NCBI GenBank assembly: GCA_963848825.1
Contig: CAWKFA010000015.1
Span: 1,837,608-1,901,607 of the forward strand
Source of the DNA: an uncultured Planctomycetota bacterium
GTDB taxonomy: Bacteria > Planctomycetota > Planctomycetia > Gemmatales > Gemmataceae
DNA: 64,000 nt
Direction: 5' to 3'
Numbering within the stretch: the stretch's first letter is position 1; each line of letters starts with the position of its first letter. Shown one piece after another: positions 29,416 to 56,801 of the stretch. The notes beneath the pieces are model-generated. The model ran no database searches and was not told the origin of the DNA. It saw nothing but the letters and a program-made list of their open reading frames with translations. The translations under genes and the position numbers were made by a program.

Positions 29416-30408
29416 TTAGTCTCTTCGAGTTCCTTCTTGGGTGGCGATGGCATGGCGCCGGGCCTGGGATTGGGCGGTTGGAACAATAGGTCGAACAGGG
29501 GGCGATGCGTGGACAACAGCAGCACCGTTTTATTGTCGCCCAGAATGCTTTGCAGCTTTTCCATCTGCTTGAGAAAAACATAAAACTCCGGGTCTTGCGT
29601 ATGCGCCTGGTTACGAATAAGCATGGCGTCGGTGTCGGCCTGGCCATTGAGCTTTTGCTCCTCGTAATGGGCTTTGGCAAGTTGGCCGCGCACATTTTCC
29701 AGCGGTGGTACTTTCGATGATTTTCGCCTGGCGGTCGCCTTCGCTCTCGTACTCGCTGACTTTTTTGATGCGTTCGCTGCGAATCCTCCGGAAGATCGAC
29801 TCCCGCACCTCACTGGGATGGCTAAAGCGACGCAGGCGAATATCCGCCAAATCGATGCCGTAATCTTTGCGTAAGGGTATACGGAGATTCGCCAACAATT
29901 GCTCACGCAGCGCCTGCATCTTGTCATCCACGCGCATGGTGCCCGGCGCACTGCCCGGGTCCGTGCTGACGAGATCATCCATGGCCATTTGGGTCAGCGC
30001 AGCGCCGAGCAGGCTATTGACGCGCGGCCCCAGAATCGACCGCGCCCGCTCCGGCGTGCCCAGGCTTTTGATGAAAACGTCGACCGCCTCCAGGTCGGCA
30101 ATGCGCCAGCATACGTAGGCTTCGATGGACAGCGTCTTGTCGATGGTTTTGCCGTCCGGATCGTGGGTGAGGATTTCCGTGGCGGGCAAGTCGAAGTACT
30201 GCAGGCGCCGATCCAGCCGTTGCACGGTTTCAATGGGCCAGGGCCAACCGAAGTGCAGTCCCGCCCCCTGGTCGGCGACAGAGCCATCGAAAGTGCCCGC
30301 CGGCTTGCCCAGCAGCGTGACGTAAACGTATTCGGAAGCATCGACCGTGTAGGCGGTCAAACGGACGATGCCAAGCAGCAGTACCAGCAGGAAAAACATA
30401 CGAATCAT
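29412..30408 (-). CDS. SPFH/band-7 protein, HflC-like; frameshift near 29690-29720
   Basis: TM MIRMFFLLVLLLGIV, SPFH core; C-terminal continuation ...QDPEFYVFLKQMEKLQSILGDNKTVLLLSTHRPLFDLL in ORF 29412-29978. Confidence 0.75.
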
Positions 30409-30418
30409 GGTTGACCTT

Positions 30419-31562
30419 TTAACGCCTAAAATGAAGGGCCCAGCCCCTCTTATTTAAGGCCCTCCAGGGGTTGTTCTTGGCGGACCGGCGGCGCATAATT
30501 ATCGGCACGCGGAACTGGTCCGGATCGAACAGAAACAAACTACGCTGCCCTTTGATATTGTCGGCATCGATCAGCACCAGGTCCCGGCCCATCAGCGCGC
30601 TTCCGAGCGTGTCCCAGTAAATGCGAAAGTCTGTCAGGACGGCCTGCAGTTGGCGGTGGTGCAAGCGCTGGCGGCGCTCCTCTTCGAGCACTCGGGCCAC
30701 GGGTTGGCCCCGCAACACCGCGTCGGCGCTTGCCAGGGCCAGCAGCAGATCATCGGCGAAATCGAGTTCGACCCGTCCGCGCGCCGCGCTTCAAAGCGTG
30801 CCAGCTCGCCCGCGGCTTGCTGGGTCTTTTCCGTGTAGCCGGCACGGGCCTGTGCAATGATGTCATGGCTGTCGGCAGCCGCTTTTTTGATTTTCTGGAC
30901 CGCTTGTTCCTCGGCTTCATTGATTTTCTGCGAACGCCCTTCCATGGCCTTGGCGACCTCATAGTAAGCCGCCACCACGTCCGCTGGGGGATGGAGATCA
31001 AGCAGAGCGATCCCTTCGATATCGATGCCCAGGCCGCCATATTGAGTGTCCGCAAGTCGTGCGCGAGCCTGGCAAGAACCTCCTCCTGGAACTGGCCACG
31101 ATAAACCGTGAGCAGATCATGAAAATCTCTACCGGCGACGGTGCCGCGCAGTACCGACTCGCCCGTGGCCCGCAAGAGCTCGTCGGGGCTGCTGACTCCG
31201 AAGAGAAACGTGCGCGCGTCGACGATCCGGTAGCGGATGGTGGCCTGGATGTCGACCAGGTTGCCATCGCCCGTAATCATCAGCGCTTCTTCCGCGAGGC
31301 GTTTTTCCCGGTGGGGACTGGTCCAGGTGAGTGTATTATCCCCCTGGCCAGGTACCCCGCGAAAGCCGATGTCCACGGTGCGCGTATGCTGGGAGACACG
31401 CACGATGTCTTCCACGGGCCAGGGCCAACGCAGGTACCAACCAGGCCCCAGGTCCCCAATAGGTTGGCCGAAGCGGCGCAATACGGCCAGCTCGTCCGTG
31501 GCCACGATCGTGAGACCACTCAGCGCATAGGCGCCCACAAGCAGCAGGGCGATTGCTGCCAT
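30419..31562 (-). CDS. third SPFH/band-7 (HflK/C-like) paralog; two frameshifts near 30990 and 30690; N-terminus is in-frame with the upstream P-type ATPase ORF as sequenced
   Basis: MAAIALLLVGAYALSGLTIVATDELAVLRRFGQPIGDLGPGWYLRWPWP...; continues ...YYEVAKAMEGRSQKINEAEEQAV...ARFEA and ...ALMGRDLVLIDADNIKGQRSLFLFDPDQ in other frames. Confidence 0.65.
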
Positions 31563-31564
31563 GG

Positions 31565-33709
31565 CCGCGCGCCGGTGGTGCGCGAGCCAGTGGACGAACT
31601 CATCGACGTCCAGACTTTTATCCAGCCAGAGCTCAGCCTGCCGCAGTCGGCCCTTGAGGGCCAGCCGCACTGGACCGGCCGTCTGCCGCTCGAACCAGAG
31701 CAAGCGCATCGAATTAAGCAGGACAGCCAGCGAGCCAATCTGATGATAAATCACCGCCGCGACGGGCCCTTGTTCATACCACCCGCCGGGCGCCAGCAAG
31801 GGCCATAGCCAGGCGGTGATGACGATGCCGATGATGTTGACGGCGAAGGCGAAGACAAAGATATTTTGACGAATGATATGGACTGTTTGCCGGGCGAGAC
31901 GAATCAGCATGGGCAGGCTGCGCAGCGGGTCGCCCATGAAAATGATGTCGCCCGCGTCGGCCGCGATGTCCGAGCCTGTGCCGCCGATGGCCAGGCCAAC
32001 ATCGGCACGGGCCAGGGCCGGAGCATCGTTGATGCCGTCGCCGACCATGGCCACGGATAGGTTGCCAGGCGCTCCCTGCATGCTTACGAGATAGTCTACT
32101 TTTTGCGCCGGCAGCAATTCCGCCTTGATGGCGGTGAAGGGTAGCTCGGCCGCCACCGCATTGGCTGCCGCCGCTCGATCGCCGGTCAAGAGCACGAGCG
32201 GCTCGATTCCTAGTGCCCGTAACTCCGCGAGCATGGCTGCCGCTTCTGGACGCACGCGATCGCGGGCGCCGAATCGGCGCCCAGCGCATGGCCGTTGCGC
32301 CACGAGCAGGGCCGTTTGTCCCGCGTCATCGAGGGCCTGCAAGAGTTGTGTTTTTCCCGCGGGCCATGCAATCCCTTGCTCCTCCAAAAGCCGGCGTGTG
32401 CCGACGATAATGGTGCCATCCTGAGTTTGCGCCGCAATTCCCGCCCCTGGATGGGCCTGAAAGGCGGTAGGCGCTTCCAGATTCAACCCCTTGATCTGAG
32501 CCGCCTGAAGAATGACCCGGGCCAGCGGATGTTCGCTCCGCTGCTCCGCGCTGGCCGCGATGCGCAACAATTCTTCCGCCGTGGTCCCGTCAAGCGGCAG
32601 CACGTCGCCAATTTCCAGTCGGCCCTCCGTGATGGTGCCTGTCTTGTCGAAGGCGAACGCCGTCACGGTGGCGAGACGTTCCAGTGCCGAGCCCCCCTTG
32701 AGCAATATCCCTGTACCCGCCAGCCGGCCGAGGGCCGCGATGATGGCGGCCGGCGTGGCCAGGATCAAGGCGCACGGACAGGCCACGACGAGGACGCTTA
32801 ACATGGGATAGACGCTGAGCGTTAAGGCGGTGCGCATGCCCAGGCGGGTAGCATCCGCGCCGCGGAAGAGCGTCGAGCCATGATAAATCAAGGCGCCGAG
32901 GAAGGTGAGCGCCGCGAGCGCCAGCACGGCGGGTAAGAAGTAGCGCGCCAGACGGTCCGCCGTGCGCTCGATCTTGGCCTTGTCCTTCAGTGCTCGCGCG
33001 GTAATGTCGATGACCCGGCCAGCAACCGTTTGGTCCGCCACCTTGCGTGCTTCTATGGTGAGCGCACCAAATTGATTCACCGAACCCGCCAGAACCTCGT
33101 CACCGACACCCTTGTCCTGTGGCAGGCTTTCACCGGTCAGCGCACTGGTATCCAGCGAAGACCGGCCCTCGATGACCATGCCGTCCACGGGAACTTTGGC
33201 GCCCGGCTTGACGACGACAACGTCGCCGACCTGGAGCACTTGCGTCAGCACGCGCACTTCCTGGCCATTCTCCAGCGCCAACAGCGCTGGGGAAAAACCT
33301 CGACGACGCGAGCGACGGCATTTTTGGTATGGGCAAAGGTAATGGCTTCGAGGCACTCGCCGACCAGGCCGATGAAGACTACCTCGGCCGCGACCAGCGG
33401 TTCCTGAATCCAGATGGCGGCGATACAGGCGATTGCCAGCGCCAGGTCGGCGCCGATACGGCCATCGATGAGGCTTTGCAGCGCTCCATAAAGAATACGG
33501 GCCCCGCCCAGGACGGCGGCGATGAGAGCGAACCGGTAGGGACCGATGCCGGCCGGCCAGCTAGCCAGCCCCGCCACGCCCACCCAGCCCGCGAGGCGCG
33601 GCGCGAGGTCGATCCCAATGAGGACCCCAAGCAGGGCCGTCATGAGGTAGAGCGCCAGGTTGCTTTCCTGGTGGAAGGCAGAGTCCGTGTGAGAAATTTC
33701 GCGATGCAT
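31565..33709 (-). CDS. P1B-type heavy-metal-translocating P-type ATPase (no N-terminal HMA domain); frameshift at a G4A5 run near 33289-33299
   Basis: TM-MBD CPC motif (VVACPCALILATP), DKTGTIT phosphorylation site, GDGINDAPAL; N-terminal TM helices and GECLEAITFAHTKNA in ORF 33245-33709. Confidence 0.8.
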
Positions 33710-33816: not shown

Positions 33817-36333
33817 CTATTGCTGGCCCCGAATTTGTGCCTTGAGAACGTGTTTGAGCCGGTCTTCAATCTTCTTGTGGGCCTTGTCGACTTCCTTATC
33901 CGTCAAGGTGCGGTCGTCTGCCTGGTAGGTAAGAGCATACGCCAGGCTCTTGTGCCCCGTGGTTATGCTCTCGCCGCGGTAAAGATCGAATAGCCGCACG
34001 CCGCGCACGAGTTCGCCGCCGGCCGCGTGAATCTCGCTGCTGATGCGTTCCGCGGTTATTGCTTCGGGCACAACCACGGCAATGTCGCGCAAGGCGCTGG
34101 GAAGCGCGGCACGGGCGTATACGGATGACGCGCCGGCACCAGCGCCTGGAGAGCTTCGACGTCAAAGTCGCCGACCAGTATCGGCCGTGTTCCTAGACCA
34201 TAAGCCTCGGCCGTCTTGTAATGCAATTGGCCGAATTCGCCCAGCACCCTGCCGCCCGCGAGCAAGGTCGCGCTCCGGCCGGGGAGGAGATAACTGGCCG
34301 CCGACGGCTGATATTTCACCTCGGCCAGGTGCAGATCCCCCGCCAGCGCTTCCACGATGCCCTTGAGATCGAAGAAATCGAGCGGCTCCTTGACGCCTTT
34401 GTCCGTACTCTTGCTATCGCTCCAAAATTCTTCATGACGATGCCCCGTAAGGACGATGGCCAGACGGCGGGGCTCCTGGGGCAGCTTGTCAGCAGCGTGG
34501 GAAAGGTAGACAAAGCCGATCTCGAACAGGCGGACGTCATCGGCATGATGGAGGTTGGCCGCCAAAATTTCCAGAACGCTCGCCAGCACGCTCTGGCGCA
34601 TGACGACGCGTTCGCTGGAGATGGGGTTTTTAAGGCGCACGTACTCCCGCGGCTCGATAAGCGGTGCCTCCCGTTCGGGGGTGGTGAGGGCATAGGTGAT
34701 GACTTCTTGCAGGCCCGCGCCCACCAGTAAATCGCGCAGGCGTTCCTCAAAAACGATGGGAACGTTGGTTTGCTGGCGCGGCAGGCGGTCGGCCAGCAGG
34801 GTCGAGGGGAGTCGATCATAACCGTGGATGCGCGCCAGTTCCTCGATGAGGTCGGAGCTGCCGACCTGGATGTCGAGCCGATGCGTCGGTACCGTCGCCT
34901 GCAAGAAGTCGCCGTGGTCCTTGACGTCGAATTCCAGAGTTTGCAGGATCTGGATGGCTTCTGCCTTGGGAAATTCCATGCCCAGCAGCCGATTCACTTC
35001 ACTTAATTTGAGTTCAATCACTTGCGGCGGCACCGGCGCGGGATAGCAATCGATCAGACCCTGGCAAACTTTGCCGCCCGCATAGCGCCCGATGAGTTCC
35101 GCGGCCCGCTGCAGCGCCGGCGCTACCGTCTCCGGATGGATGCCCTTGCTGAAGCGGCACACTGGCTTCGCTCGGCAGGTTGAATTGCTTCATCGTGCGA
35201 CGAATGCAGACGAAATCAAAGCTGGCGGATTCGAGCAAGATATTGGTCGTTTGGGCCGTGACTTCCGTTTCCGCGCCGCCCATGACTCCCGCCAGGGCGA
35301 TTGGCCCCAGCGTGTCGGCGATGATTAAATTGTCGGGGCCAAGTTGACGTTTCTGGCCGTCGAGAGTGATCAGGATTTCGTCGGCCCGCGCCGCCCGAAC
35401 GATGATGGTCGGGCAACCCCCGCCGGCCCGTTTGACGAGCACGTCGAAGTCGAAGGCATGCAGCGGTTGGCCCCACTCGAGCATGACGAAATTGGTGACG
35501 TCCACAACATTATTGATGGGCCGCATGCCCGCATAGTTAAGCCGGCGCTGCATCCAGGCGGGTGACGGCGCGATGGCCACACCCAGGCACAAGGAAGCGG
35601 CATAGCGCGGCGATAACTTCGGATTGTCGATCTTCACCTGAACCTTGCCGGCGATAGCGACATCGCTCGGAGGCGGCATGGAGGTGGGCAGCTTTAAGGT
35701 TTGCCCGGTAAGCGCCGCCACCTCGCGGGCCACGCCGACCATCGACAGGCAGCGTGCCATATTGGGCAGGACGTCAATCTCCAACACGATGTCGCCCATG
35801 AAGTCGGCCAGCGGCATTCCCACCGGGGCACTTTCCTCAAGAAGGATAATGCCTTCATGCTCCTCGGAGATGCCCAGTTCGCGGTAGGAACACACCATCG
35901 CGTCCGACGGCACGCCGCGCACCTTTGCGGGCTTAAGCTCCTTGAGGACTTTTTCTTCGGAGTGGCCGTCGAAAAGGACGGACCCCGCGAGCGCCAGCAC
36001 GACCTTTTGGCCCTGCTCGCCCGGCTTGATGTTCGGTGCGCCGGTGACCAGCTGTTTGACCTTGCCTTCGCCCCATGTCACGGTCGGCAGCGTGAGCCGG
36101 TCCGCGTTGGGGTGCTGCTCGACGCTCATGACCTCGGCGATGACGATCTTGTCGCTTGTCCCAGACTGGCCCGCGCAGCTCGGGCTTCGACGCGCACCCC
36201 CTCCGGAATCGGCAGGCCGATCACGCGCACGCTGGCCACTTCAAGCCCGGCCAGGGTCAGACGCTCGATGAGCTGCGCCGGCAGGCAGGGTGAGATCGAC
36301 GTAATCGCGAAGCCAGTTTAAGGGGATTTTCAT
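33817..36333 (-). CDS. pheT: phenylalanine--tRNA ligase beta subunit; at least 4 frameshifts near 36270, 36180, 35160 and 34090
   Basis: MKIPLNWLRDYVDL start at 36333; ...DKIVIAEVMSVEQHPNADRLTLPTVTWGEGKV tRNA-binding domain; B3/4 and core in ORFs 35014-36129 and 34056-35162; FDX-ACB end in ORF 33817-34092. Confidence 0.85.
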
Positions 36334-44251: not shown

Positions 44252-45041
44252 TCAATCCGGCTTCAGTGCTGGCCCAATCCGCGACAGCTTCAAAAACATC
44301 TCGGTCAAGCTACTACAGCCGCTGCGCTCCTGTAACTCGGCCAGGGTGCCCTCACTGACCAGTTCACCCCGGTGCATGAGACCAAAACGCGTGCAGTGGC
44401 GCTGGGCATCGTCCAGGTGATGGGTGGTGAGGATGACGGCCTTGCCCTCGCCGCGCAAGTGATCGATATATTCGGTGACCACCTGGCAGCCGAGCACGTC
44501 CAGCCCAAGCGTCGGCTCATCCAGAAGCATGACGGGCGGCCGATGAATCAGCGCCCGCGCCAGGTTGACGCGCTGCGCGCTGGCCGGTGCTGAGCGTCCC
44601 GCAGCGCTGCTGGAGGAATTCCTTCAGATCGAGCAAGCGAACCAGATGGTCCAGCTCAATCGCGGCCTGCTCGGGCGCTACCCCATAGATGTCGGCAAAA
44701 AAAAGCAGCATCTCGCGAACGGTAAGCGCCTGATAAAGCCCCGTGCCGGCCGACACCAGACCGACACGCCGCTTGACTTCATTGGGATACTGGCTCGACC
44801 CAAAGCCCGCAATCGAAGCCTGCCCACTCGTGGGCCGCAGCAAACCCAGCAGCATGCGCAACGTGGTAGTCTTGCCCGCCCCATTAGGCCCCAGCAGGCC
44901 ATAAATCTCTCCCGCCGCCACCGTGAAGGACAACTCCTTGACCGCGGCCAGCGAACCGCCCCCCGGCAACGAAAAACATTTGCTCAGGCGGTCGACGTGG
45001 ATCATGAAAATGTTATACGGGCGGATGGGGGAGGCTTGCAT
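44252..45041 (-). CDS. ABC transporter ATP-binding protein; frameshift (1-nt insertion) near 44575 between Walker A and signature regions
   Basis: GPNGAGKTT Walker A, LSTGQR signature, [11 protein letters not shown] Walker B in ORF 44252-44530. Confidence 0.8.
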
Positions 45042-45164
45042 GAGTCCGGTCAGATCTTTCTATTCGTTCCAGGCAGAACGTCCTTGAACCTGGCGGCTGC
45101 GAACCGTGTCCTTTCAGAAATCAGAAAAATATTGTAAAATCGGGCAATTTGCAGGGGCTTGAAG

Positions 45165-46565
45165 ATGTTGCTGACGATCACAACGACGCACCAACCGGCG
45201 AACGACCTGGGCTTCCTACTCCACAAGCACCCGGAGCGGTTTCAGTCGTTCGACCTGAGTTTCGGCAAGGCTCACGTTTATTACCCCGAGGTCGGCGCCG
45301 AGCGGTGCACGGCCTGCTTGCTGCTCGACGTGGATGCCGTGGGCATGGTTCGGGGCAAGCAATCCGGACCAGAATTTCCTGCTGGCGCAGTACGTCAACG
45401 ACCGGCCCTACGCGGCCTCGTCGTTCATGAGCGTGGCCATCGCCCAGGTCTTCGGCTCGGCCCTCCAAGGGCGTTGCAAGGATCGGCCCGAGTTGGCGAC
45501 AACGGCGATTCCCTCTGCGGCCAGCATCGACGTGCTGCCGGTGCGCGGCGGCGAGCGGTTTCTTGCGTGCTGTTTTCGAGCCGCTGGGCTACGAGGTCGA
45601 AGCCGTCCGTTCTCCGCTGGACGAGCGGTTTCCCGAATGGGGCGAAAGTCCGTACTTCTCCGTGACCGTGCGGAAGACGACGACGCTGGCCGAATTGCTG
45701 ACCCACCTGTACGTCCTGATCCCGGTGTTCGACAACCGCAAGCATTACTGGGTCGGCGACGACGAGATGGAAAAGCTGCTTGCCAAGGGCGAGGGCTGGC
45801 TGGCCGGCCATCCCGAGAAGGAGGAGATCACCCGCCGCTATTTGAAGTTTCAGCCGAGCCTCTACCGCCTGGCGCTGGCCCGGCTCGTTCAGGAGGAGGA
45901 GCCGGAAGAAGCCGAAGAAGAGCGAGCAGCCGAAAGAGAAGGCCGAGGAGGTTCTGGAAAAGCCCATCAGCCTCAATGAACAGCGGCTCGGGGCGGTCGT
46001 GGCTTCGTTGCGAGCAAGCGGGGCCAAGCGGGTTCTCGACCTGGGCTGCGGTGAAGGCAAGCTGATCCGAGAACTGCTCAAGGACAAGCAGTTTGATGAG
46101 ATCGTGGGCATGGATGTCTCGATCCGCACCCTGGAAGTGGCCCAGCGCCGGCTCAAGGTGGACCGCCTGCCGACGATGCAAGCGAACCGGCTCAAGCTGA
46201 TTCACGGCTCGCTCATGTACCGGGACAAACGGCTGGAAGGCTTTGACGCCGCCGCCGTTGTCGAAGTCGTGGAACACCTCGATCCGCCTCGGCTGTCGGC
46301 GTTTGAGCGAGTGCTGTTTGAGTTCGCCAGGCCACGGACGGTCGTGCTGACGACGCCGAACCGGGAGTACAACGTGACGTGGGAGACGCTGCCGGCGGGA
46401 AAGTTTCGGCATCCCGACCACCGCTTTGAGTGGAATCGGCAGGAGTTTCAGGGATGGGCGCAACGGATTGCTGAGCGGTTCGGCTATACGGTGCGGTTCC
46501 TGCCGGTGGGGCAGGAACATCCTGAATATGGGCCACCGACGCAGATGGGCGGTATTTCAGCGTAA
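45165..46565 (+). CDS. hen1: bacterial Hen1 RNA 3'-terminal ribose 2'-O-methyltransferase; 3 frameshifts near 45330-45360, 45560-45600 and 45900-45960
   Basis: N-terminal MLLTITTTHQPANDLGFLLHKHPERFQSFDLSFGKAHVYYPE (Hen1 N-domain); C-terminal MTase RVLDLGCGEGKLIRELL...IVGMDVS...VVEVVEHLDPPRL...TTPNREYN. Confidence 0.8.
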
Positions 46566-46588
46566 GGCCAAAGTGAGGGGATAACGCC

Positions 46589-47039
46589 GTGGAAGCCGTG
46601 ATCTTCGTTGGCCTTCAAGGGGCCGGCAAATCGACATTCTACAAAGAGCGATTCTTTGCCACGCACCTGCGGATCAACCTGGACATGCTCAAGACCCGGC
46701 ATCGGGAAAAGCGGCTTCTGACGGCTTGCGTCGAGACCGGCCAGCCGTTCGTCGTGGACAACACGAACCCGACACGGGCCAGAACGAGAAGTCTACATTC
46801 GGGCGGCGAAGGAGGCCGGGTTTCGGGTGGTGGGCTACTACTTCCAGTCCCGAGTCGAGGACTGCAAGCGGCGGAACGACCAGCGACCTGCCGCCCAGCA
46901 GGTGCCGCTCCGTGGCATCCTCGGCACGGCTGGGCGAATGGAACTCCCGACCCGTGAGGAGGGATTCGACGAACTGTTCTACGTCAGGATTGACGACGGC
47001 GGCGGCTTCGTGATTGAGGAGTGGAAAGATGAAGTTTGA
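46589..47039 (+). CDS. stand-alone P-loop polynucleotide kinase (Pnkp/T4 Pnk kinase-domain family); one frameshift near 46775-46795
   Basis: GTG start; VIFVGLQGAGKSTFYKERF Walker A; VVDNTNPT...YIRAAKEAGFRVVGYYFQSRVEDCKRRNDQR typical PNK kinase-domain layout; no phosphatase or ligase domain. Confidence 0.7.
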
Positions 47040-47747
47040 TGAACTTGACGACAAGATGCGGGTGTTCGAGACGGCCCACGACCTGTGCGTGCTGCCGGGC
47101 CTGTACATGGTCGCCCGCCTGGACGGACGCAGCTTCACCCGGCTGACGAAGGAGGTCCACCAGTTGAGGCTCCGTTCGACGCCCGATTCCGTGACATGAT
47201 GCTGGCAACCGCCGAACACCTGATGACCGGCTGCGGCTTCAACATCGTTTACGGCTACACCCAGAGCGACGAGATTTCCCTGCTGTTCGCCCTGGAGGAG
47301 AACAGTTTCAGACGAAAGCTCCGCAAGCTGATCTCGGTCCTGTCCGGGGAGGCCAGCGCCAAGTTCTCACTGTTGCTGGGTGCGGTAGCCGTATTCGACT
47401 GCCGCATCTCGCAACTGCCCTCGGTGGACCTTGTGGTCGATTACTTCCGCTGGCGCAACGAGGACGCCCACCGCAACGCCCTGAACGCTCACGGCTACTG
47501 GCTCCTCCGCAAGAAGGGGACAGACGGTCGGGCGAGGCGACGGCGGCGATGAAAGGGCTGTCGGTGGCCCAGAAGAACGAGCTTCTGTTCCAGAACGGCG
47601 TCAACTTCAACGACCTCCCGCTGTGGCAGAAGCGGGGCTCTGGCCTGTACTGGGAGGAATACGAGCGACCCGCCGAAAACCCGGTCACAGGCGAGAAGGT
47701 GGTCGCCCGGCGCAGGCGGGTGCGCCGTGACCTTGAGTTGCCGATGA
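47029..47747 (+). CDS. Thg1-like protein (3'-5' RNA nucleotidyltransferase); frameshifts near 47150 and 47520-47545; reads through in-frame into the next gene as sequenced
   Basis: MKFDELDDKMRVFETAHDLCVLPGLYMVARLDGRSFTRLTKE ~ Thg1 N-terminus (SKFGYVRQFE...IVVRIDGKKFHEFSK); ...GYTQSDEISLLF (acidic metal site) and ...RWRNEDAHRNALNAHGYWLL; start overlaps the PNK stop by 11 nt. Confidence 0.8.
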
Positions 47748-48778
47748 AGGACGACTACTCGGCGTTTCTCCACAAGCTGCTGCCCGTCGAAGGCGTCAAC
47801 GCACGAGACGCCATGAAGTGTGACATGCAGGATCGAGTCCACCACCATCCGAACCTGATCTATTCGCTCGGCACGCAGGTCGTGACGCTGGTCGAAATCC
47901 TCGGCCAGAGCGGCAAGGTGCTGCACCCCCGTGGCTCGGTCGGCGTGGTCGTCCGCTCGCCGGTGGACCTGGATCATCCCTACCGGGTCCGGTTTGCCGA
48001 TGGCATCGAGGAGTCGCTGAACCGGGATCAAGTGACGATGCTGGCCCGCTACAAGGAGTCCGAGATCGGCGACACCGGCATCACGGCCATTCGCTGCAAC
48101 CTGTACGAGCGGGTCATCTATCGCTGCGTCATCGGCTCGCAGGCGTATGGCCTGGCCGGCGAAGGGTCGGACATCGACCGCCGAGGCATCTACCTGCCGC
48201 CCGCCGACCTGCACTGGTCGCTGTACGGCGTGCCCGATCAACTGGAAAACGACGACACCCAGGAAGCCTACTGGGAGATCCAGAAGTTTCTGGTGCTGGC
48301 ACTCAAGGCGAACCCGAACGTGCTGGAATGCCTCTACACGCCGACTGGTCGAGAAGGCGACTCCGCTGGCCGAGAAACTGCTGGCGATGCGGTCGTTATT
48401 TCCTCTCCCGCATGGTGTACCAGACGTACAACGGCTACGTCCTGTCGCAGTTCAAGAAGATGCAGGCCGACCTGCGCAACCAGGGCCAGGTGAAATGGAA
48501 GCACGTCATGCACCTGATCCGGCTGCTTGCTCTCGGGCATCCGCATCATGCGGGAGGGCTTCGTGCCGGTCAGGGTGGAGGAGCATCGGGAGAAACTGCT
48601 GGCGATCCGGCGAGGCGAGGTGCCCTGGGAAGAGGTCGAGGACTGGCGGAAGCGTCTGCACCACGAATTCAACGCCGCCTCGGAAGCGACGAACCTGCCC
48701 GAGCGCCCGGATTACGAGAGGGCCAATGCGTTTCTGATCGAGGCCCGCCGCTCGGCATTGTCGGAGAACCTGCCATGA
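47744..48778 (+). CDS. Pol-beta-fold nucleotidyltransferase with N-terminal beta-rich domain and C-terminal helical domain (possibly RlaP-type RNA-repair NTase); at least 3 frameshifts between 48340 and 48530
   Basis: VIGSQAYGLAGEGSDIDRRGIYLPP (GS...D.D minimal NTase motif); ATG 47744 overlaps a TGA (ATGA) usable as the TLP stop after a frameshift. Confidence 0.5.
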
Positions 48779-49550
48779 TGAACGACCCACGTTTGCTGAA
48801 GCAGGTCGAACTGCATCCCTATCCGCTGCTCTTCGCCACGATCAGCGGGGCGCACCTGTACGGCTTCCCGTCGCCGGATTCCGATTACGACCTGCGCGGC
48901 GTGCATCTGCTCCCGCTGGAGGAAGTGGTCGGGCTTGAAGACGGGCCAGGAGACGGTCGAGAAATCGGGAGTCCACGATGGCCTGGAGATTGATCTGGTC
49001 ACGCACGACGCCCGCAAGTTCTTCGGCCTGCTGCTGAAGAAGAATGGCTACGTGCTGGAGCAAGTCCTGTCGCCGCTCGTCGTCCACACGACGCCGGAAC
49101 ATGCGGAACTGAAGGAGATCGCCAAGAACTGCGTCACCCGGCATCATGCCCATCACTACCTGGGTTTTGCGGAAACGCAGTGGAAGCTCTTTCAGAAGGA
49201 AGACCCGCCGCACGTCAAGCCGCTGCTGTATGTGTACCGGGTGCTGTTGACCGGCATTCACCTGATGCGGACGGGCGAGGTTCAGGCCAACCTGGGGCGG
49301 TTGAACGAGAGCTTCAAGCTGCCGTACATCCCAGAATTGATCGAGCGAAAGGTTACGGCGGCACCGAGAAAGGACGCCTGGAGAAGGCGGACCTTGGCTT
49401 TTCATCAGCGGGAGTACGAACGGCTGCGGGCCGAACTTGAGCAGGCTTATCAGGAAAGCAAGCTGCCGGAAGCACCGAGCGGGGCGGCGGCGTTGGATGA
49501 ACTGCTTGTCCGCATTCGGCTTGGCAAGAAGGGCAATGAGGTTGATTGAA
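48775..49550 (+). CDS. paralogous Pol-beta-fold nucleotidyltransferase (possibly RlaP-type); frameshift near 48960
   Basis: ISGAHLYGFPSPDSDYDLRGVHLLP NTase motif; C-terminal helical domain paralogous to the preceding gene; ATG overlaps the upstream TGA (ATGA). Confidence 0.5.
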
Positions 49551-49659
49551 ATGAAAGAACGCACGCTTGCGACTGCCCCCTATGCAGAGCAAATGAAACG
49601 CTGGGAGGCACATTCTGCTGCCCTCAACCCTCGCTCACCAAACCTATCTTCACCGAATG

Positions 49660-50379
49660 CTACGAAAGAGAGACATTGTGGTAGATTTCCTGCACGTCAT
49701 CGCAATCGTTTAGCATGCCCAGGAATTTCTCGAACAAGGCCAAGTCTTCCCCGCTGAGCGTCTTTGTTGCCTGCGGAAGGAAAGTGATTTCCTGGACTTC
49801 CAGCTCAAGGCCGGGGAATGCCTCGAGCAAGGCCGTTTTGGCTTTGTAGAACTCGGCGGGAGGGGCGAAGACCGTAATGGTGCCATCCTTGCTTTCGACC
49901 TCTTCGATGGCGACATCCGCGGCGAACATGGCCTCCAGCACTTTCTCCTCGTTGTCACCCTTGAAAGAAAGTACCGCCAGGTGATCAAACGACATCACGA
50001 CGGACCCATTGGCAGCCAATTTGGACCCCGTCTTGGTGAAACAACTGCGAATATCGGAGATGGTACGTGTATTGTTGTCGGTCAAGCAATCGACAATGAC
50101 CAAGGCGCCGCCGGGACCAAACCCCTCATAACGCGCCGGTTGGAAGTCCTCGCCTCCCGTGCCAGCGGCTTTCTGAATCGCCTTTTCAATCACATGGCTC
50201 GGAACATTTTCACGCTTGGCTCTTTCGACGAAGCTGCGCAGCACCGGATTGGCGTCCGGGTCGGGCACGCCATTCTTGGCCGCCATGTACAATTGTTTGC
50301 TGTACTTGGAATAGAGCTTTGAGTTCTGAGCGGCGGTTTTGAAGATCGAGTGTTTGCGCTTCTCGAAAATTCTTCCCAT
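49660..50379 (-). CDS. YebC/PmpR family DNA-binding transcriptional regulator
   Basis: 239 aa, full-length match to the YebC family. Confidence 0.9.
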   Translation of the reverse strand: MGRIFEKRKHSIFKTAAQNSKLYSKYSKQLYMAAKNGVPDPDANPVLRSFVERAKRENVPSHVIEKAIQKAAGTGGEDFQPARYEGFGPGGALVIVDCLTDNNTRTISDIRSCFTKTGSKLAANGSVVMSFDHLAVLSFKGDNEEKVLEAMFAADVAIEEVESKDGTITVFAPPAEFYKAKTALLEAFPGLELEVQEITFLPQATKTLSGEDLALFEKFLGMLNDCDDVQEIYHNVSLS

Positions 50380-50765: not shown

Positions 50766-50943
50766 TGCTTCTGTCCTCCAAATCTCATGATACTGGAAAA
50801 ATCCCTGCCATGTCGAGCGTAAACAAGGGCGTTGCCGCCCCTTCACGTGGCTGCGGGTTCCCTTCAAGACTGAGCCGTTTCGCGGCTGCCTTCAATCCAG
50901 TCTACGTCGTCGTACGGCTTGCCTCGAACGACGCTGCGGCGAA

Positions 50944-51296
50944 GGTGAAAGGGTGGTGGTCTTCGTCCCCTGCCGCCTCGTGCGGCAGGAACGAAAGGTC
51001 TGTAGCTAAGGTAAAGGGTGGTGGTCTTCGTCCCCTGCCGCCTTGTGCGGCAGGAACGAAAGGTCTGTAGCTAAGGTAAAAAAGTGGTGGTCCTCGTCCC
51101 CTGCCGCCTTGTGCGGCAGGAACGAAAGGTCTGTAGCTAAGGACCCTGGCGGCGACCACAAAAAGGATGCGCGAGATGGTGGTTTAGGTGCGGACCTTGC
51201 GTTCCTGCCACGCGAGGTGGTAGGGGACGGGGTGTGGGCGGCTTGATTTTGCTAGCTGTCGACCTTTCGTTCCTGCCACGCGAGGTGGCAGGGGAC
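50944..51296. repeat. cluster of 36-bp stem-loop repeats: three direct copies in a 66-67-bp tandem unit (50965-51000, 51030-51065, 51096-51131) and two inverted copies (51193-51228, 51261-51296); not CRISPR
   Basis: gtcccctgccgccttgtgcggcaggaacgaaaggtc; inverted copies carry compensatory stem changes (cctgccGc/gCggcagg -> cctgccAc/gTggcagg). Confidence 0.75.
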
Positions 51297-51394
51297 GGGA
51301 CACTAGTATCCTGCCACACAATCCGGACGCGATAAATCGTCGAACAAAGTCAGCAAGCCATCTTTTGCGTCAAACGTCGCAGCTCAATAGCTAT

Positions 51395-52107
51395 CTAACC
51401 GCCGGCTGCCTGGGTAGCCAGCGTGGCCAAAACCAGTGCCGCCGTCTCGATACGCAGTATACGCGGTCCCAGACCCAGCACGTGCCAGCCATGCGCTGAT
51501 GCCTGGGCGATTTCTTCCGCCGTGAAGCCTCCTTCGGGGCCGACGGCACAGGATAGGTTTGCTCCCGCTGTCACCGGCCAGCCGGCGGTGGTTCCCGGGG
51601 TGGGCGGGTGAGCGACAATACGTAGGGTGCCGGCTGCGGCGCGTTCACAATAGGTAGCCCAGTCGATGGGGTCTTCCACGCGCATCAGTGTGTTGCGGCC
51701 GCACTGTTTGCTGGCTTCGATCACGTAGCGTTCGAGCTTGCTCTTTTTGTTGTCGCCCAGGTGGCCGGCGCCGCGCTGGCAGAGGAGCGGGACAAAGGCG
51801 CTGACGCCAAGTTCGGTTAACTTTTCCACCAGGAACTGGGCTCGATCCCCCTTGGGCACGGGCGCGGCGATTTCCAGGCGAAAGCCAAGCTCTCGGCTGG
51901 GCGAGGCCACCCCTTCAATTTCGAGATGAACCGACCTTTTCGAGACTTCGACGATGCGCCCGGGTATTCATGCCCATCGCCGTTGAATAGGCAGATTGCG
52001 TCACCCGCGCGAAGCCGGCAAACCGTGGCAAGATGGCGGGCTTCCGGGCCCGTCATTTCCACCGGACCGGTGGTCAATGGCCAGTTGAGATAAAATCGTT
52101 CCGACAT
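51395..52107 (-). CDS. rsmE: 16S rRNA (uracil1498-N3)-methyltransferase RsmE; frameshift at a cccggg run near 51963-51970
   Basis: N-terminal PUA-like MSERFYLNWPL...FNGDGHEY; alternative frame continues RIVEVSKRSVHLEIEGVASPSRELGFRLEIAAPVPKGDRAQFLVEKLTELGV (SPOUT domain). Confidence 0.8.
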
Positions 52108-53892: not shown

Positions 53893-53930
53893 GCTTTTGA
53901 AGACTTTCGTGTAACCCATCTCCGCAGGCC

Positions 53931-55251
53931 ATGGCCATGGCGTCCCCTCCGGAAAACGATGCTCGTTTTCGCTGGCAAACACTGTTTCAGCATGCTACTG
54001 GGCCCATTTTTCTCCTCAATCGTCGTCGCCGGATCCTGTTTGTCAACCGGGCCTGGGAAACGCTTACGGGGTTGACGCTCGCGGAAGTGAAGGGGCAGGT
54101 ATGCCGGCGCCGGCCGCGCGGTATCTTGGCGGAGAAGATCGAACTCTTGCTTGGCGCCCTGGCCCCTCCCGCGGAAGCCATGGAGGGGCAAGCCACGCAG
54201 TCCCGCCGGCTCGTGCCTTCCGGTAACGCGCCGGCTTGCTGGGACATTGCTTTCTTTCCCCTTAACGGCAACGCCGGGCTCGTCGGCATCCTTGGCGGCA
54301 TTCAGGTCATTCCACGCCCGGAAACACCGGCGGGCCCGCCGCTCTCCGAAAAGATGCTGGCTTTGCGTCAGCGTCATCTCGAGCATTATCGTCTCGAGCA
54401 CCTGATCGGCGCCGGTCCCGTCCTTACCCGTTTGCGCAGCAAATCCGCCTGGCGGCCCAGACGCGCTTGCCGATCCTTCTCGTCGGGGCACGCGGCACGG
54501 GCAAGCAATGGGTGGCGCGGGCCATTCATTTGCTCGGACCGGACCATGAAAAACCATTCGCCTGCCTGAATTGTGCTCATCTTCCGCCCCAGGCGCTCGA
54601 GTCGCTGCTGTTCGGCACCGGCCAGGGTGCGCCGCTGGCCGGCCTCTATCTGCAAAATATCGCCGCCTTGCCGCGTGACCTGCAGGAACGCCTGCAAGCC
54701 CGTCTGGAAGCCGAGGGAGAGGTGTCGCCGCGCTTTTGTGCCGGCGTGATGGATGATCCCCAGGAAGCCGTCCGCCTGGGAAAACTTGTCGAAGGCCTTT
54801 ATTGCCGGCTCAGTACACTGAGCATTGAACTGCCGACTCTCAAGGAACGCATGGAGGATTTTGACGCCTGGGCCGACCACTTCTTGGCCCGCGCAACCGC
54901 GCCGGCGACCGGCAAGTGCAGGGCGTGAGCGCCGAAGCCGTGCAGGTCCTGCGAGCGCATGCCTGGCCGGGAAATTTGCGGGAGCTCCACGAAGTGCTGC
55001 GCGCGGCCTGCTTGCGAGCCCGGGGCGAGCGGATCGAGCTTGGCGACTTGCCTTTCCACCTGCGCCAGGGGCCCATGCCCGAGATCAAGCCGCTGTCGCT
55101 CGATGCCATTTTGGAGCAGGTGGAACGGCGTCTGATTACCCATGCCTTGAAGCTCGCTGCCAATAACAAAAGCCGGGCCGCGGAGTTACTCACCATCTGG
55201 CGCACCCGCCTGTTGCGGCGGCTGGAAAACCTGGACATCAAGGACCAGTAA
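53931..55251 (+). CDS. PAS-domain / AAA+ (sigma-54 activator-type, GAFTGA-less) / Fis-type HTH transcriptional regulator; frameshifts near 54440 and 54910
   Basis: PAS (PIFLLNRRRRILFVNRAWETLTGL), AAA+ (PILLVGARGTGKQWVARAIH...), C-terminal HTH (NNKSRAAELLTIWRTRLLRRL). Confidence 0.65.
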
Positions 55252-56399: not shown

Positions 56400-56801
56400 A
56401 CAGATTTCTCCAAAAAACTGGGGTTTTCTGTCCTTAGATAGGTAAGGTATCCGTTTGCTATTCCCGGAATATTAAAGCTGCGCCTGGGCAACGGCAACAA
56501 AAATCGCCTTTTTTTGTGTTTTTTTGTGCGATTTCCTTCAAAATGTGCCTACTTTCGCCACCTGTCCTCTAATACGCGCAGGCTCCGCATTGGCGGCGTT
56601 TTAAAGTGCGCCAGCGAAAAATCAGAAAAATCGTTAAAACCGGCCGCCTGCCGGAAAACTTGACCTATAGTTGCCGTGAAGCTCTTCGCGTGAAGAGCGA
56701 TCCTCGACAAGGGTAAACCCGTCGTAAGGCGGGGCGCAAAACCATGGGTCCGGTAGCCAGGCGCTGGCGATCGGATTGCCAGGTTGCCGAAAGGAAAAGT
56801 C

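What the first reader, a model, noticed from the sequence alone, without database searches (positions are those of the whole stretch)
45165..49550. Ligase-less RNA end-repair/modification cassette: Hen1 - Pnk-type kinase - Thg1-like protein - two Pol-beta nucleotidyltransferases
Five co-directional, overlapping or coupled genes. The starts and stops form ATGA or short overlaps at 47029-47039, 47744-47747 and 48775-48778. The operon encodes the following.
- A bacterial-type Hen1 with its diagnostic N-domain and C-terminal 2'-O-MTase.
- A roughly 150-aa stand-alone P-loop polynucleotide-kinase domain.
- A Thg1-like 3'-5' nucleotidyltransferase (TLP).
- Two paralogous minimal NTase-fold proteins with GS...D.D motifs, possibly RlaP-type.

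Canonical bacterial Hen1 partners with the trifunctional Pnkp (kinase-phosphatase-ligase). Here no ATP-grasp, Rnl or RtcB ligase and no phosphoesterase is visible. Instead a templated 5'-end-extending enzyme (TLP) and two 3'-NTase candidates are present.

A plausible logic, inferred only from domain identities, has three steps. The kinase makes a 5'-phosphate on a cleaved tRNA/RNA, the TLP activates that end and rebuilds lost 5' nucleotides, and Hen1 methylates the 3' end to block re-cleavage.

As sequenced, the TLP reads through into the first NTase with no stop. The whole locus is riddled with frameshifts, which may be sequencing error or decay. To my knowledge this exact composition is not experimentally characterised.
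Basis: partly seen in the sequence, partly recalled or inferred. Interest (0 to 1): 0.85.

Follow-up and report, generated by a model that had tools for sequence, protein, structure and literature searches.

The report
Truncated, error-ridden bacterial RNA-repair gene island
The five RNA-repair genes are real, but the cluster is a cut-off copy of a widespread gene island that normally ends with the Pnkp RNA ligase, and its many frameshifts look like assembly errors rather than biology.

Summary
The five co-directional genes are there. Profile searches confirm Hen1, a PNK-type 5'-OH kinase, a Thg1-like protein (TLP) and two RlaP nucleotidyltransferases. No ligase or phosphoesterase lies anywhere in the 64 kb window.

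"Ligase-less by design" is not supported. In relatives the same block is a modular, horizontally spread island: Hen1, (Rnl + HD-kinase), kinase-TLP, (RlaPa-RlaPb), (DUF4291), Pnkp. Among 48 well-flanked TLP loci, 18 carry Hen1 and 16 of those carry Pnkp. In the window, a ~23-codon stub of DUF4291 follows RlaPb at 49551-49620. In the one complete relative (L001) DUF4291 precedes Pnkp, so the right end of the island has been cut off. Hen1 is the canonical Pnkp-ligase-activating type.

The cassette has 15 indel events, 14 of them insertions. Removing them restores five full-length ORFs with no internal stops and no excess substitutions. Ten of 13 inserted bases equal an allele that relatives carry at the adjacent site (P = 0.003). 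This points to a consensus artefact from mixed haplotypes, not decay. The TLP-RlaP read-through is probably the same artefact.

The kinase-Thg1 pairing was predicted in 2010, and RlaP and Pnkp-Hen1 are known. This is a new, damaged member of a known kind.

The parts
45113..45140 (+). Promoter-like site (TTCAGA, 16 nt, TAAAAT) in the 123-nt divergent spacer upstream of hen1.
   Evidence: This is a consensus match only (1 found against 0.5 expected) and is weak evidence.
45165..46584 (+). hen1: bacterial Hen1, with the N-terminal Pnkp-ligase-activating domain and the C-terminal RNA 3'-terminal 2'-O-methyltransferase. As sequenced it is split over four frames by +1 insertions near 45361, 45565, 45922 and 46547. 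The apparent stop at 46563-46565 is out of frame; the corrected stop is TGA 46582-46584.
   Evidence: The correction restores the C-terminal QMAVF also seen in A. variabilis Hen1.
46589..47039 (+). 149-aa PNK-family 5'-OH polynucleotide kinase with a GTG start. It has one +1 insertion at 46781 and overlaps the TLP gene by 11 nt.
   Evidence: One search aligns the P-loop GLQGAGKST, the Asp of INLD and the DNTNP motif with mouse PNKP. A kinase gene abuts the TLP gene in 64 of 77 loci.
47029..47816 (+). Thg1-like protein (TLP), a 3'-5' nucleotidyltransferase. It has a 1-nt deletion at 47166 and two insertions near 47520 and 47530. Conserved homology ends at 47785. As sequenced there is no stop. 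Removing one base in 47786-47813 would give TGA 47814-47816, overlapping ATG 47813.
   Evidence: 93-94% identity to intact 252-254 aa TLPs; D32, D81 and E82 invariant; homologue tails run only 0-9 residues past KLL.
47825..48778 (+). RlaPa: a 316-aa RlaP (PF10127) Pol-beta-fold nucleotidyltransferase with an unassigned N-terminal extension of about 95 residues. It has +1 insertions at 48345, 48396 and 48527.
   Evidence: homologues are 316 aa, up to 93% identical; G104, S105, D116 and D118 invariant.
48775..49549 (+). RlaPb: the second RlaP paralogue. Its start forms an ATGA overlap with the RlaPa stop. It has insertions at 48935, 49354-5 (2 nt), 49398 and 49528-9 (2 nt). The corrected length is 252 aa.
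   Evidence: The correction restores KVGGTEKGRLEKADLGFHQ, which matches homologues, and gives the length of the L168 RlaPb.
49551..49620 (+). Stub of a DUF4291 gene: the first ~17 codons, an 11-nt deletion, then GRHIL. Homology to relatives ends here, 40 nt from the convergent yebC stop. It marks the truncated right end of the island.
   Evidence: The full gene is 206-209 aa in L001 and L168. In L001 it is followed by Pnkp.

Best explanation
What it is. This is one copy of a modular, horizontally spread bacterial RNA-repair island built on the Pnkp-Hen1 system. Two nucleotide-restoring modules have been inserted into it. One is a PNK-type kinase plus a Thg1-like protein, which rebuilds lost 5' nucleotides. 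The other is the RlaPa/RlaPb pair, which adds nucleotides to 3'-OH ends.

How the full island would work.
- The Pnkp phosphatase removes the 2',3'-cyclic phosphate.
- RlaP adds one or two nucleotides to the 3' end.
- The small kinase phosphorylates the 5'-OH.
- The TLP activates that 5'-phosphate and adds templated nucleotides in the 3'-5' direction.
- Hen1 methylates the 3'-terminal 2'-OH.
- The Pnkp ligase domain, activated by the Hen1 N-domain, seals the break.

Basis of each step. The Hen1, Pnkp, TLP and RlaP activities are taken from work on other organisms' enzymes: RlaP and TLP from the papers read here, and Hen1 and Pnkp from the cited literature and from general knowledge of those systems. 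Their assignment to these proteins rests on homology. The order of steps is inferred.

What happened in this window. The island has lost its right end: most of DUF4291 and everything beyond it, which in L001 includes Pnkp. The phosphatase and ligase are therefore not encoded in cis.

The frameshifts. The 15 small indels, and probably the TLP-RlaPa read-through, are consensus errors of the assembly. The likely cause is that two diverged copies or strains of this island were merged.
For: Family assignments are above curated cut-offs.

Island architecture in relatives:
- L002: Hen1-kin-TLP-RlaP-Pnkp.
- L001: Hen1-Rnl-HDkin-kin-TLP-...-RlaPa-RlaPb-DUF4291-Pnkp (Hen1 by tblastn).
- L003: Hen1-Rnl-kinase-kin-TLP-RlaPa-RlaPb.
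- L169: Hen1-RlaPa-RlaPb-Pnkp.
- L083-85: Hen1...RlaPa-RlaPb-kin-TLP-Pnkp.

Co-occurrence: 16 of 18 well-flanked Hen1 loci carry Pnkp.

Truncation: the DUF4291 stub at 49551-49620. Block homology to relatives starts at the hen1 start (about 45152-45164) and ends at about 49604-49620. The Hen1 N-domain is about 60% identical to the C. thermocellum domain crystallised under 4dqz.

Artefact:
- Removing 17 inserted bases and restoring 1 deleted base gives ORFs of 471, 149, 316 and 252 aa, the lengths of intact homologues, and a TLP whose conserved 251 residues are intact. There are no internal stops.
- At sites conserved in at least 95-97% of relatives, the window has 0-1 private substitutions per protein, at or below the median of its relatives. 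The four in RlaPb vanish on correction.
- 14 of the 15 events are insertions.
- 10 of 13 inserted bases equal an allele present in relatives at the adjacent column, against 36% for random insertions (P=0.003).
- Essential pheT is also split, so assembly errors exist elsewhere in the window.
Against: - The indel density in the cassette (about 1 per 300 bp) is roughly ten times that of the rest of the window, which holds unbroken ORFs of 500-936 codons. The mixed-haplotype explanation is inferred and was not shown with reads.
- Ligase-free relatives exist: L168 (kin-TLP-RlaPa-RlaPb-DUF4291, with Hen1 reduced to an 83-aa stub), L081 (Hen1-kin-TLP) and 25 of 48 loci with kinase-TLP alone. Parts of the island can therefore persist, and perhaps work, without Pnkp.
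- In L168 DUF4291 is not followed by Pnkp. The stub proves truncation of DUF4291, not loss of Pnkp.
- No independent assembly of this species was found to confirm the 49620 junction.
Confidence: 0.68

Rival explanations
1. A working, ligase-independent end-restoration system. The kinase plus TLP rebuild 5' ends, the RlaPs rebuild 3' ends, and Hen1 caps the 3' end. Nothing needs to be joined, because the damage is terminal (for example a nibbled tRNA acceptor stem) rather than an internal break.
For: - The kinase-TLP pair occurs with no Hen1, Pnkp, Rnl or RlaP within the flanks in 25 of 48 loci.
- L168 keeps kin-TLP-RlaPa-RlaPb-DUF4291 intact without Pnkp.
- L081 has Hen1-kin-TLP without Pnkp.
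- B. thuringiensis and M. acetivorans TLPs repair 5'-truncated tRNAs in vitro without a ligase (PMC3061083).
Against: - Hen1 here is the canonical type whose N-domain exists to activate the Pnkp ligase.
- Hen1 goes with Pnkp in 16 of 18 loci, and in L168 the loss of Pnkp goes with destruction of Hen1.
- The DUF4291 stub shows the right end was cut, not designed.
- No phosphoesterase is present to open 2',3'-cyclic-phosphate ends for RlaP or Hen1.
Confidence: 0.15
2. A genuinely decaying pseudogene island. After the ligase end was lost, the remaining genes became useless and are accumulating real frameshifts.
For: - Frameshift density is about ten times higher in the cassette than in its flanks.
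- The right end is truncated.
- Relatives show real erosion: an internal Hen1 deletion in L168, an internal Pnkp deletion in L029, Pnkp fragments in L170/L171 seen in two assemblies, and an RlaPb stub in L025.
Against: - There are no in-frame stop codons after correction.
- There is no excess of substitutions at conserved sites.
- 14 of 15 events are insertions, the opposite of the deletion bias generally reported for bacterial pseudogenes (general knowledge).
- Inserted bases match neighbouring alleles of relatives.
- Erosion in relatives is by large deletions, not by scattered +1 insertions.
Confidence: 0.07
3. An assembly chimera hides an intact island. The real genome continues from DUF4291 into Pnkp, and the join to yebC at about 49620 is a mis-join created where reads from different copies or strains were merged.
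For: - The error-dense stretch (45361-49529) ends within 100 nt of the breakpoint.
- The tandem-allele signature implies mixed templates.
- The flanks show no synteny with relatives, so nothing independently supports the junction.
Against: - The stub carries its own 11-nt deletion and then loses homology, as a real old deletion scar would.
- yebC itself is intact and error-free.
- There is no direct evidence of a mis-join.
Confidence: 0.1

Closest known systems
Pnkp-Hen1 RNA repair system (Clostridium thermocellum, Anabaena variabilis)
   Same: - Hen1 is a full-length equivalog (TIGR04074, 718.9 bits).
- Its N-domain matches 4dqz at E=4e-85 and its methyltransferase domain matches A. variabilis Hen1 (3jwh) at E=4e-83.
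- In relatives the island ends with an 867-aa Pnkp carrying kinase, metallophosphoesterase and PNKP_ligase domains.
   Different: - No Pnkp is present in the window.
- Extra genes sit between hen1 and pnkp in relatives, in the order hen1, insert, pnkp.
- A Trichormus MAG (L035) whose Hen1 methyltransferase domain is about 91% identical to the crystallised A. variabilis Hen1 has the kinase-TLP pair between hen1 and pnkp.
Polynucleotide kinase - Thg1 gene neighbourhoods predicted by Anantharaman, Iyer and Aravind 2010 (Biol Direct 5:43, PMC2904730)
   Same: - A P-loop PNK-family kinase lies directly next to a bacterial Thg1 homologue, sometimes with an RNA ligase.
- The same logic applies: the kinase makes the 5'-phosphate that Thg1 needs.
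- Here the two genes overlap by 11 nt, and a kinase gene abuts the TLP gene in 64 of 77 loci.
   Different: That paper does not mention Hen1 (0 occurrences). It reports a Macro-domain partner that was not seen here. The RlaP pair and DUF4291 are additional.
RlaP (PF10127), RNA ligase-associating Pol-beta nucleotidyltransferases (Burroughs and Aravind 2016; Carruthers, Fatma and Huang 2025 preprint)
   Same: - Both window proteins match PF10127 well above the cut-off.
- The proposed role, adding 1-2 nucleotides to RNA 3'-OH before ligation, was shown in vitro for the Pseudomonas enzymes.
   Different: - There are two diverged paralogues in tandem with an ATGA overlap, rather than one gene.
- RlaPa carries an unassigned extension of about 95 residues.
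- No ligase gene is adjacent in the window.
- No solved structure is detectable by sequence.
- The characterised enzymes sit in RtcB operons.
Pnkp1-Rnl-Hen1 complex (Capnocytophaga gingivalis, PMC4411300)
   Same: It is a precedent for hen1 being encoded away from its kinase-phosphatase and ligase partners. L001 and L003 carry Hen1, an Rnl (PF09414) and a kinase next to each other.
   Different: That Hen1 is only about 20% identical to canonical Hen1, and the window's Hen1 is the canonical type. The paper states that canonical pnkp and hen1 are always in one operon.

Membership tests
Bacterial Hen1 (TIGR04074) | Full-length match to the equivalog model above its curated cut-off, including the N-terminal Hen1_L domain. 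| tested here: met
   718.9 bits against 340, model positions 1-462 of 462; Hen1_L 376 bits. This is after removing four inserted bases.
Bacterial Hen1 (TIGR04074) | Methyltransferase core alignable to crystallised Hen1 enzymes, with the SAM motif and metal ligands. | tested here: met
   E=4e-83 to 3jwh over residues 260-465. The sequence shows VLDLGCGEG, EVVEHL and HPDHRFEW directly.
Pnkp-Hen1 RNA repair system | A trifunctional Pnkp (kinase, phosphatase, ligase) encoded in the same operon as hen1. | tested here: not met
   tblastn with two 867-aa Pnkp proteins found nothing in 64 kb. Pnkp is present in 16 of 18 well-flanked relatives with Hen1. Whether one lies elsewhere in the genome cannot be tested.
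Thg1 / Thg1-like protein (PF04446 + PF14413) | Both domains above the gathering score, and the catalytic carboxylates present. | tested here: met
   Thg1 109.9 bits against 29.2 and Thg1C 57.9 bits against 26.3. D32, D81 and E82 are invariant in 21 relatives and are present in the corrected window protein.
Thg1 / Thg1-like protein (PF04446 + PF14413) | Belongs to the TLP branch rather than to eukaryotic tRNA-His guanylyltransferases. | tested here: inconclusive
   The best solved match is M. acetivorans TLP (5axk, 2e-28), ahead of the chains labelled tRNA(His) guanylyltransferase (3otb, 6e-24). B. thuringiensis TLP (4kgk) scores 7e-19. No tree was built.
Thg1 / Thg1-like protein (PF04446 + PF14413) | Templated 3'-5' nucleotide addition to 5'-truncated RNA. 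| not testable with these tools
   This needs an enzyme assay.
PNK-family 5'-OH polynucleotide kinase partnered with Thg1 (PMC2904730) | A P-loop kinase of the PNK family directly adjacent to the Thg1 gene. | tested here: met
   AAA_33 59.4 bits against 27. It aligns over 130 residues with the mouse PNKP kinase domain, with the P-loop, the Asp and DNTNP conserved. The 11-nt overlap with the TLP gene is seen.
RlaP (PF10127) | Match above the gathering score, with the Pol-beta G[SA]...DxD signature. | tested here: met
   RlaPa 162 bits and RlaPb 184 bits against 23. RlaPa has GSQAYG...SDIDRRG, invariant in 22 homologues. RlaPb has SGAHLYG...SDYDLRG.
RlaP (PF10127) | Encoded next to an RNA ligase, which is the origin of the family name. 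| tested here: not met
   There is no ligase in the window. The feature is met in relatives L001, L002, L169 and L083-85.

The most novel reading that the evidence does not exclude
Kinase-TLP, RlaPa/RlaPb and Hen1 together form a self-sufficient system that restores and then caps RNA termini without any ligation. It would act, for example, on tRNAs whose acceptor-stem 5' end and 3' end have been trimmed. Hen1 would have been co-opted away from Pnkp, and the Pnkp-free variants (this window, L081, and L168 for the non-Hen1 part) would be functional states rather than wreckage.
Probability: 0.12. Interest if true: 0.65.

Novelty: new member of a known kind. Interest (0 to 1): 0.33.

Why it matters
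The intact relatives of this locus are a natural candidate for complete 'gap-filling' RNA repair. They put a 5'-nucleotide restorer (kinase + TLP), a pair of 3'-nucleotide adders (RlaPa/RlaPb), an end-capping methylase (Hen1) and a healing-and-sealing enzyme (Pnkp) in one operon.

That combination would answer a question left open in the RlaP preprint: how cells recover RNAs from which ribotoxins have removed nucleotides. I found no paper in the held library that reconstitutes it.

The TLP is 65-85% identical across at least eight phyla. This points to strong constraint and frequent transfer.

For this window the practical message is different. The 'ligase-less' look comes from a truncated island in an error-dense stretch of assembly. 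It should not be read as a new system without read-level checks.

Tried and rejected
- Exact-protein look-up of the window's YebC found nothing on record.
- An exact 28-mer spanning the DUF4291-stub scar had no match in metagenome contigs.
- YebC-based retrieval of 80 metagenome loci (up to 93% identity) showed no shared neighbours with the window. There is therefore no independent test of the junction or of the indels.
- Burroughs and Aravind 2016 (NAR 44:8525, PMC5062991) is the most likely place where this neighbourhood was already drawn. It is not held in the library, so prior description of the Hen1-TLP-RlaP combination could not be checked.
- AlphaFold2 of RlaPa from a 22-sequence alignment gave a mean pLDDT of 52 (below 50 over residues 1-63 and 79-179). 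No fold search was run, and the N-terminal extension stays unassigned.
- Sequence searches against solved structures found nothing for RlaPa, RlaPb or DUF4291.
- Rfam at gathering thresholds and ARAGORN found no RNA gene in or next to the cassette.
- I considered a real TLP-RlaPa fusion protein and rejected it as unlikely. In the loci where gene calls were read, or the junction was aligned to the base (L002, L003, L013, L029, L168), the two are separate genes. TLP tails run only 0-9 residues past KLL. One inserted base in a 28-nt stretch would restore an ATGA stop/start.
- The check for RtcB used motifs recalled from memory and is weak on its own.

Full report
**What is in the sequence**

Between a divergent ABC-transporter ATPase gene (44252-45041, minus strand) and a convergent yebC-like gene (49660-50379, minus strand) lie five co-directional coding regions. 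Each is broken over several reading frames. Pfam on the raw fragments already recovers:
- Hen1_L in three consecutive pieces, plus a SAM methyltransferase;
- a weak AAA_33 hit;
- Thg1 and Thg1C;
- two RlaP (PF10127) proteins.

After frame correction every assignment is far above its curated cut-off:

| Protein | Length | Family score (cut-off) |
|---|---|---|
| Hen1 | 471 aa | TIGR04074 718.9 bits (340), full length |
| Kinase | 149 aa | AAA_33 59.4 bits (27) |
| TLP | about 254 aa | Thg1 109.9 bits, Thg1C 57.9 bits |
| RlaPa | 316 aa | RlaP 162 bits (23) |
| RlaPb | 252 aa | RlaP 184 bits (23) |

The closest solved structures are:
- the C. thermocellum Hen1 N-domain (4dqz, E=4e-85) and the A. 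variabilis Hen1 methyltransferase (3jwh, E=4e-83);
- the kinase domain of mouse PNKP for the small kinase (E=3e-12, with the P-loop, catalytic Asp and DNTNP motif aligned);
- M. acetivorans TLP (5axk, E=2e-28).

**Junctions**

The 11-nt kinase/TLP overlap (47029-47039) and the ATGA overlap of RlaPa and RlaPb (48775-48778) are real and recur in relatives. It is the conserved internal Pro-Met-Lys-Asp of the TLP. Conserved TLP sequence ends at 47785 and RlaPa starts at ATG 47825.

**Relatives and architecture**

The stitched TLP is 93-94% identical to intact 252-254 aa proteins from Gemmataceae (Planctomycetota). There were 7664 hits. A scan of species-representative genomes gave 561 confirmed loci. 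The best 80 span Planctomycetota, Cyanobacteria, Chloroflexota, Acidobacteriota, Bacillota, Bacteroidota, Myxococcota and Deinococcota at 65-85% protein identity.

Mapping the island's proteins onto these loci shows a modular structure:
- **Invariant core.** The core is the kinase-TLP pair. A kinase gene abuts the TLP gene in 64 of 77 loci with enough upstream sequence.
- **Flanking Hen1 and Pnkp.** In many Gemmataceae and Nostocales the pair sits between hen1 and pnkp.
- **Optional modules.** These are Rnl (PF09414) plus an HD/AAA_33 kinase, the RlaPa-RlaPb pair, and DUF4291.
- **Example: Zavarzinella formosa** has Hen1-kin-TLP-RlaP-Pnkp.
- **Example: L001** has Hen1-Rnl-HDkin-kin-TLP-(400 aa)-RlaPa-(70 aa)-RlaPb-DUF4291-Pnkp.
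- **Example: L169** has Hen1-RlaPa-RlaPb-Pnkp, with no kinase-TLP.

Among 48 loci with at least 4 kb upstream and 6 kb downstream, 25 have only kinase-TLP. Eighteen have Hen1, and 16 of those have Pnkp. Pnkp never occurs without Hen1.

**The missing ligase**

No Pnkp, Rnl or other ligase is detectable anywhere in the window:
- tblastn with Pnkp and Rnl found nothing.
- Pfam on ten blocks of flanking ORFs found none.
- A motif check for RtcB was negative, but it is a weak test.

Immediately after RlaPb, at 49551-49620, the window keeps the start of a DUF4291 gene. About 17 codons are 78% identical to L001. An 11-nt deletion follows, then GRHIL, and then homology stops 40 nt from the yebC stop. 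Block homology to relatives begins at the hen1 start codon. The island is therefore an inserted block whose right end has been cut off.

In L001 the gene after DUF4291 is Pnkp. In L168 it is not, so the stub proves truncation but not, by itself, loss of Pnkp.

Natural erosion of this island is common in relatives:
- L168 has an internal 1.2-kb Hen1 deletion and no Pnkp.
- L029 has a Pnkp lacking its phosphatase.
- L170 and L171, from two assemblies, have Pnkp in fragments.
- L025 has an RlaPb stub.

**The frameshifts**

Alignment to L001, L003 and L168 (85-88% nucleotide identity) shows 15 window-specific indel events:
- insertions at about 45361, 45565, 45922, 46547, 46781, 47520, 47530, 48345, 48396, 48527, 48935, 49354-5, 49398 and 49528-9;
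- one deletion at 47166.

Removing the 17 inserted bases and restoring the deleted one gives ORFs of 471, 149, 316 and 252 aa, the lengths of intact homologues. It also gives a TLP whose conserved 251 residues are intact. There is no internal stop.

At columns conserved in at least 95-97% of relatives, the corrected proteins have 0-1 private substitutions, no more than their relatives do. The four in RlaPb fall inside a +2/+1 local frameshift and vanish on correction.

Real decay long enough to fix 15 indels should also have left substitutions and stop codons, and should be biased towards deletions. That expectation rests on general knowledge of bacterial pseudogenes. The observed pattern is the opposite.

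Ten of 13 inserted bases are identical to an allele that relatives carry at the adjacent column. For example, the window has GGGC-CA-GAAC where relatives have GGGC-C-GA or GGGC-A-GA. The window has GGG-CT-TGAAG where relatives have CTG or TTG. Random insertions give this pattern 36% of the time (P=0.003). Carrying both alleles in tandem is what a consensus built from two diverged templates produces.

This would also explain why the indel density here (about 1 per 300 bp) is roughly ten times that of the rest of the window. The rest contains unbroken ORFs of 500-936 codons, although essential pheT and other genes are also split there. The mixed-template cause is my inference and is not demonstrated.

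**The TLP-RlaPa read-through**

In relatives the two are separate genes, and the TLP ends 0-9 residues after KLL. In the window, one extra base within 47786-47813 would hide a TGA at 47814-47816 that overlaps ATG 47813. I judge the fusion to be an artefact, but the non-conserved tail cannot be corrected by homology.

**Mechanism**

Known from other enzymes:
- Hen1 2'-O-methylates the RNA 3' end, and its N-domain activates the Pnkp ligase.
- Pnkp heals and seals breaks.
- TLPs add templated nucleotides to 5'-truncated tRNAs after activating a 5'-phosphate (PMC3061083).
- Pseudomonas RlaPs add one or two nucleotides to RNA 3'-OH (bioRxiv 10.64898/2025.12.29.696909).

Inferred here by homology and gene linkage:
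- The 149-aa kinase supplies the 5'-phosphate for the TLP. This was already predicted in PMC2904730.
- The RlaP pair and the TLP refill nucleotides lost at the two sides of a break before Pnkp-Hen1 seals and marks it.

In this window the healing phosphatase and the ligase are not encoded in cis.

**Novelty**

The kinase-Thg1 linkage (2010), RlaP (2016, 2025), Pnkp-Hen1 and the idea that RlaP and Thg1 restore lost terminal nucleotides (PMC7824862) are all published. I could not read Burroughs and Aravind 2016 to see whether the composite island is drawn there.

The window's locus is a new, truncated and badly assembled member of a known kind. The intact composite island in relatives is worth biochemical study. 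One such relative is a Trichormus MAG whose Hen1 methyltransferase domain is about 91% identical to the crystallised A. variabilis enzyme.

Noticed in passing
window 56703-56792 (+): A c-di-GMP-I-GGC riboswitch aptamer (RF03167) scores 62.3 bits against a gathering score of 59, with the full model matched. It is the only Rfam hit in the window.
   Followed up: no
window 50934-51299: There are three tandem copies of a 65-66-nt unit, each holding a GC-rich hairpin (CCCCTGCCGCC...GCGGCAGG). Two more copies of a related unit follow in the opposite orientation at 51185-51299. They look like REP-like intergenic repeats between a small ORF and rsmE.
   Followed up: partly
window about 35017-35189, 44520-44623, 51817-51967, about 61497, 53900-54865: Housekeeping genes outside the cassette are also split or cut. 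These are pheT (essential), the ABC ATPase, rsmE, dprA (the profile match stops at 129 of 212) and a sigma-54-type activator of which only the lid and HTH domains are seen. Errors are therefore window-wide, at about a tenth of the cassette's density, and by frame arithmetic they are a mix of +1 and -1 shifts.
   Followed up: partly
window 28471-33560 (-): A P-type ATPase ORF continues in frame into an SPFH/Band-7 domain (residues 685-839 of the 936-residue ORF). Next to it lie two further SPFH/Band-7 ORFs. This may be a real fusion or a frameshift artefact.
   Followed up: no
L045 1766-2125 (uncultured Anaerolineae): A MazF/PemK endoribonuclease toxin gene (E=2e-25) lies about 280 nt upstream of a TLP-RlaPa-RlaPb trio that has no kinase. 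A stand-alone metallophosphoesterase sits about 4 kb downstream.
   Followed up: no
L001 and L168 flanks: In relatives the island sits among genes typical of mobile elements. L001 has ArdC-N, SprT-like and HTH_17 genes, plus two 98%-identical copies of a 400-aa ORF. L168 has DUF932 and PcfJ. This fits horizontal spread.
   Followed up: no
L008-L087 (80 genome loci): The TLP is 65-85% identical in protein sequence across at least eight bacterial phyla. This is unusually high for a non-essential enzyme.
   Followed up: partly
window 47825-48110 (RlaPa residues 1-95): RlaPa has a conserved N-terminal extension with no Pfam or PDB match. AlphaFold2 draws five short beta-strands, but at pLDDT below 50.
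   Followed up: partly
L035 1234-6600 (Trichormus sp. M33_DOE_039): A Hen1 about 91% identical in its methyltransferase domain to the crystallised Anabaena variabilis Hen1 is separated from pnkp by the kinase-TLP pair. The classic A. variabilis Pnkp/Hen1 locus may carry the same insert.
   Followed up: partly
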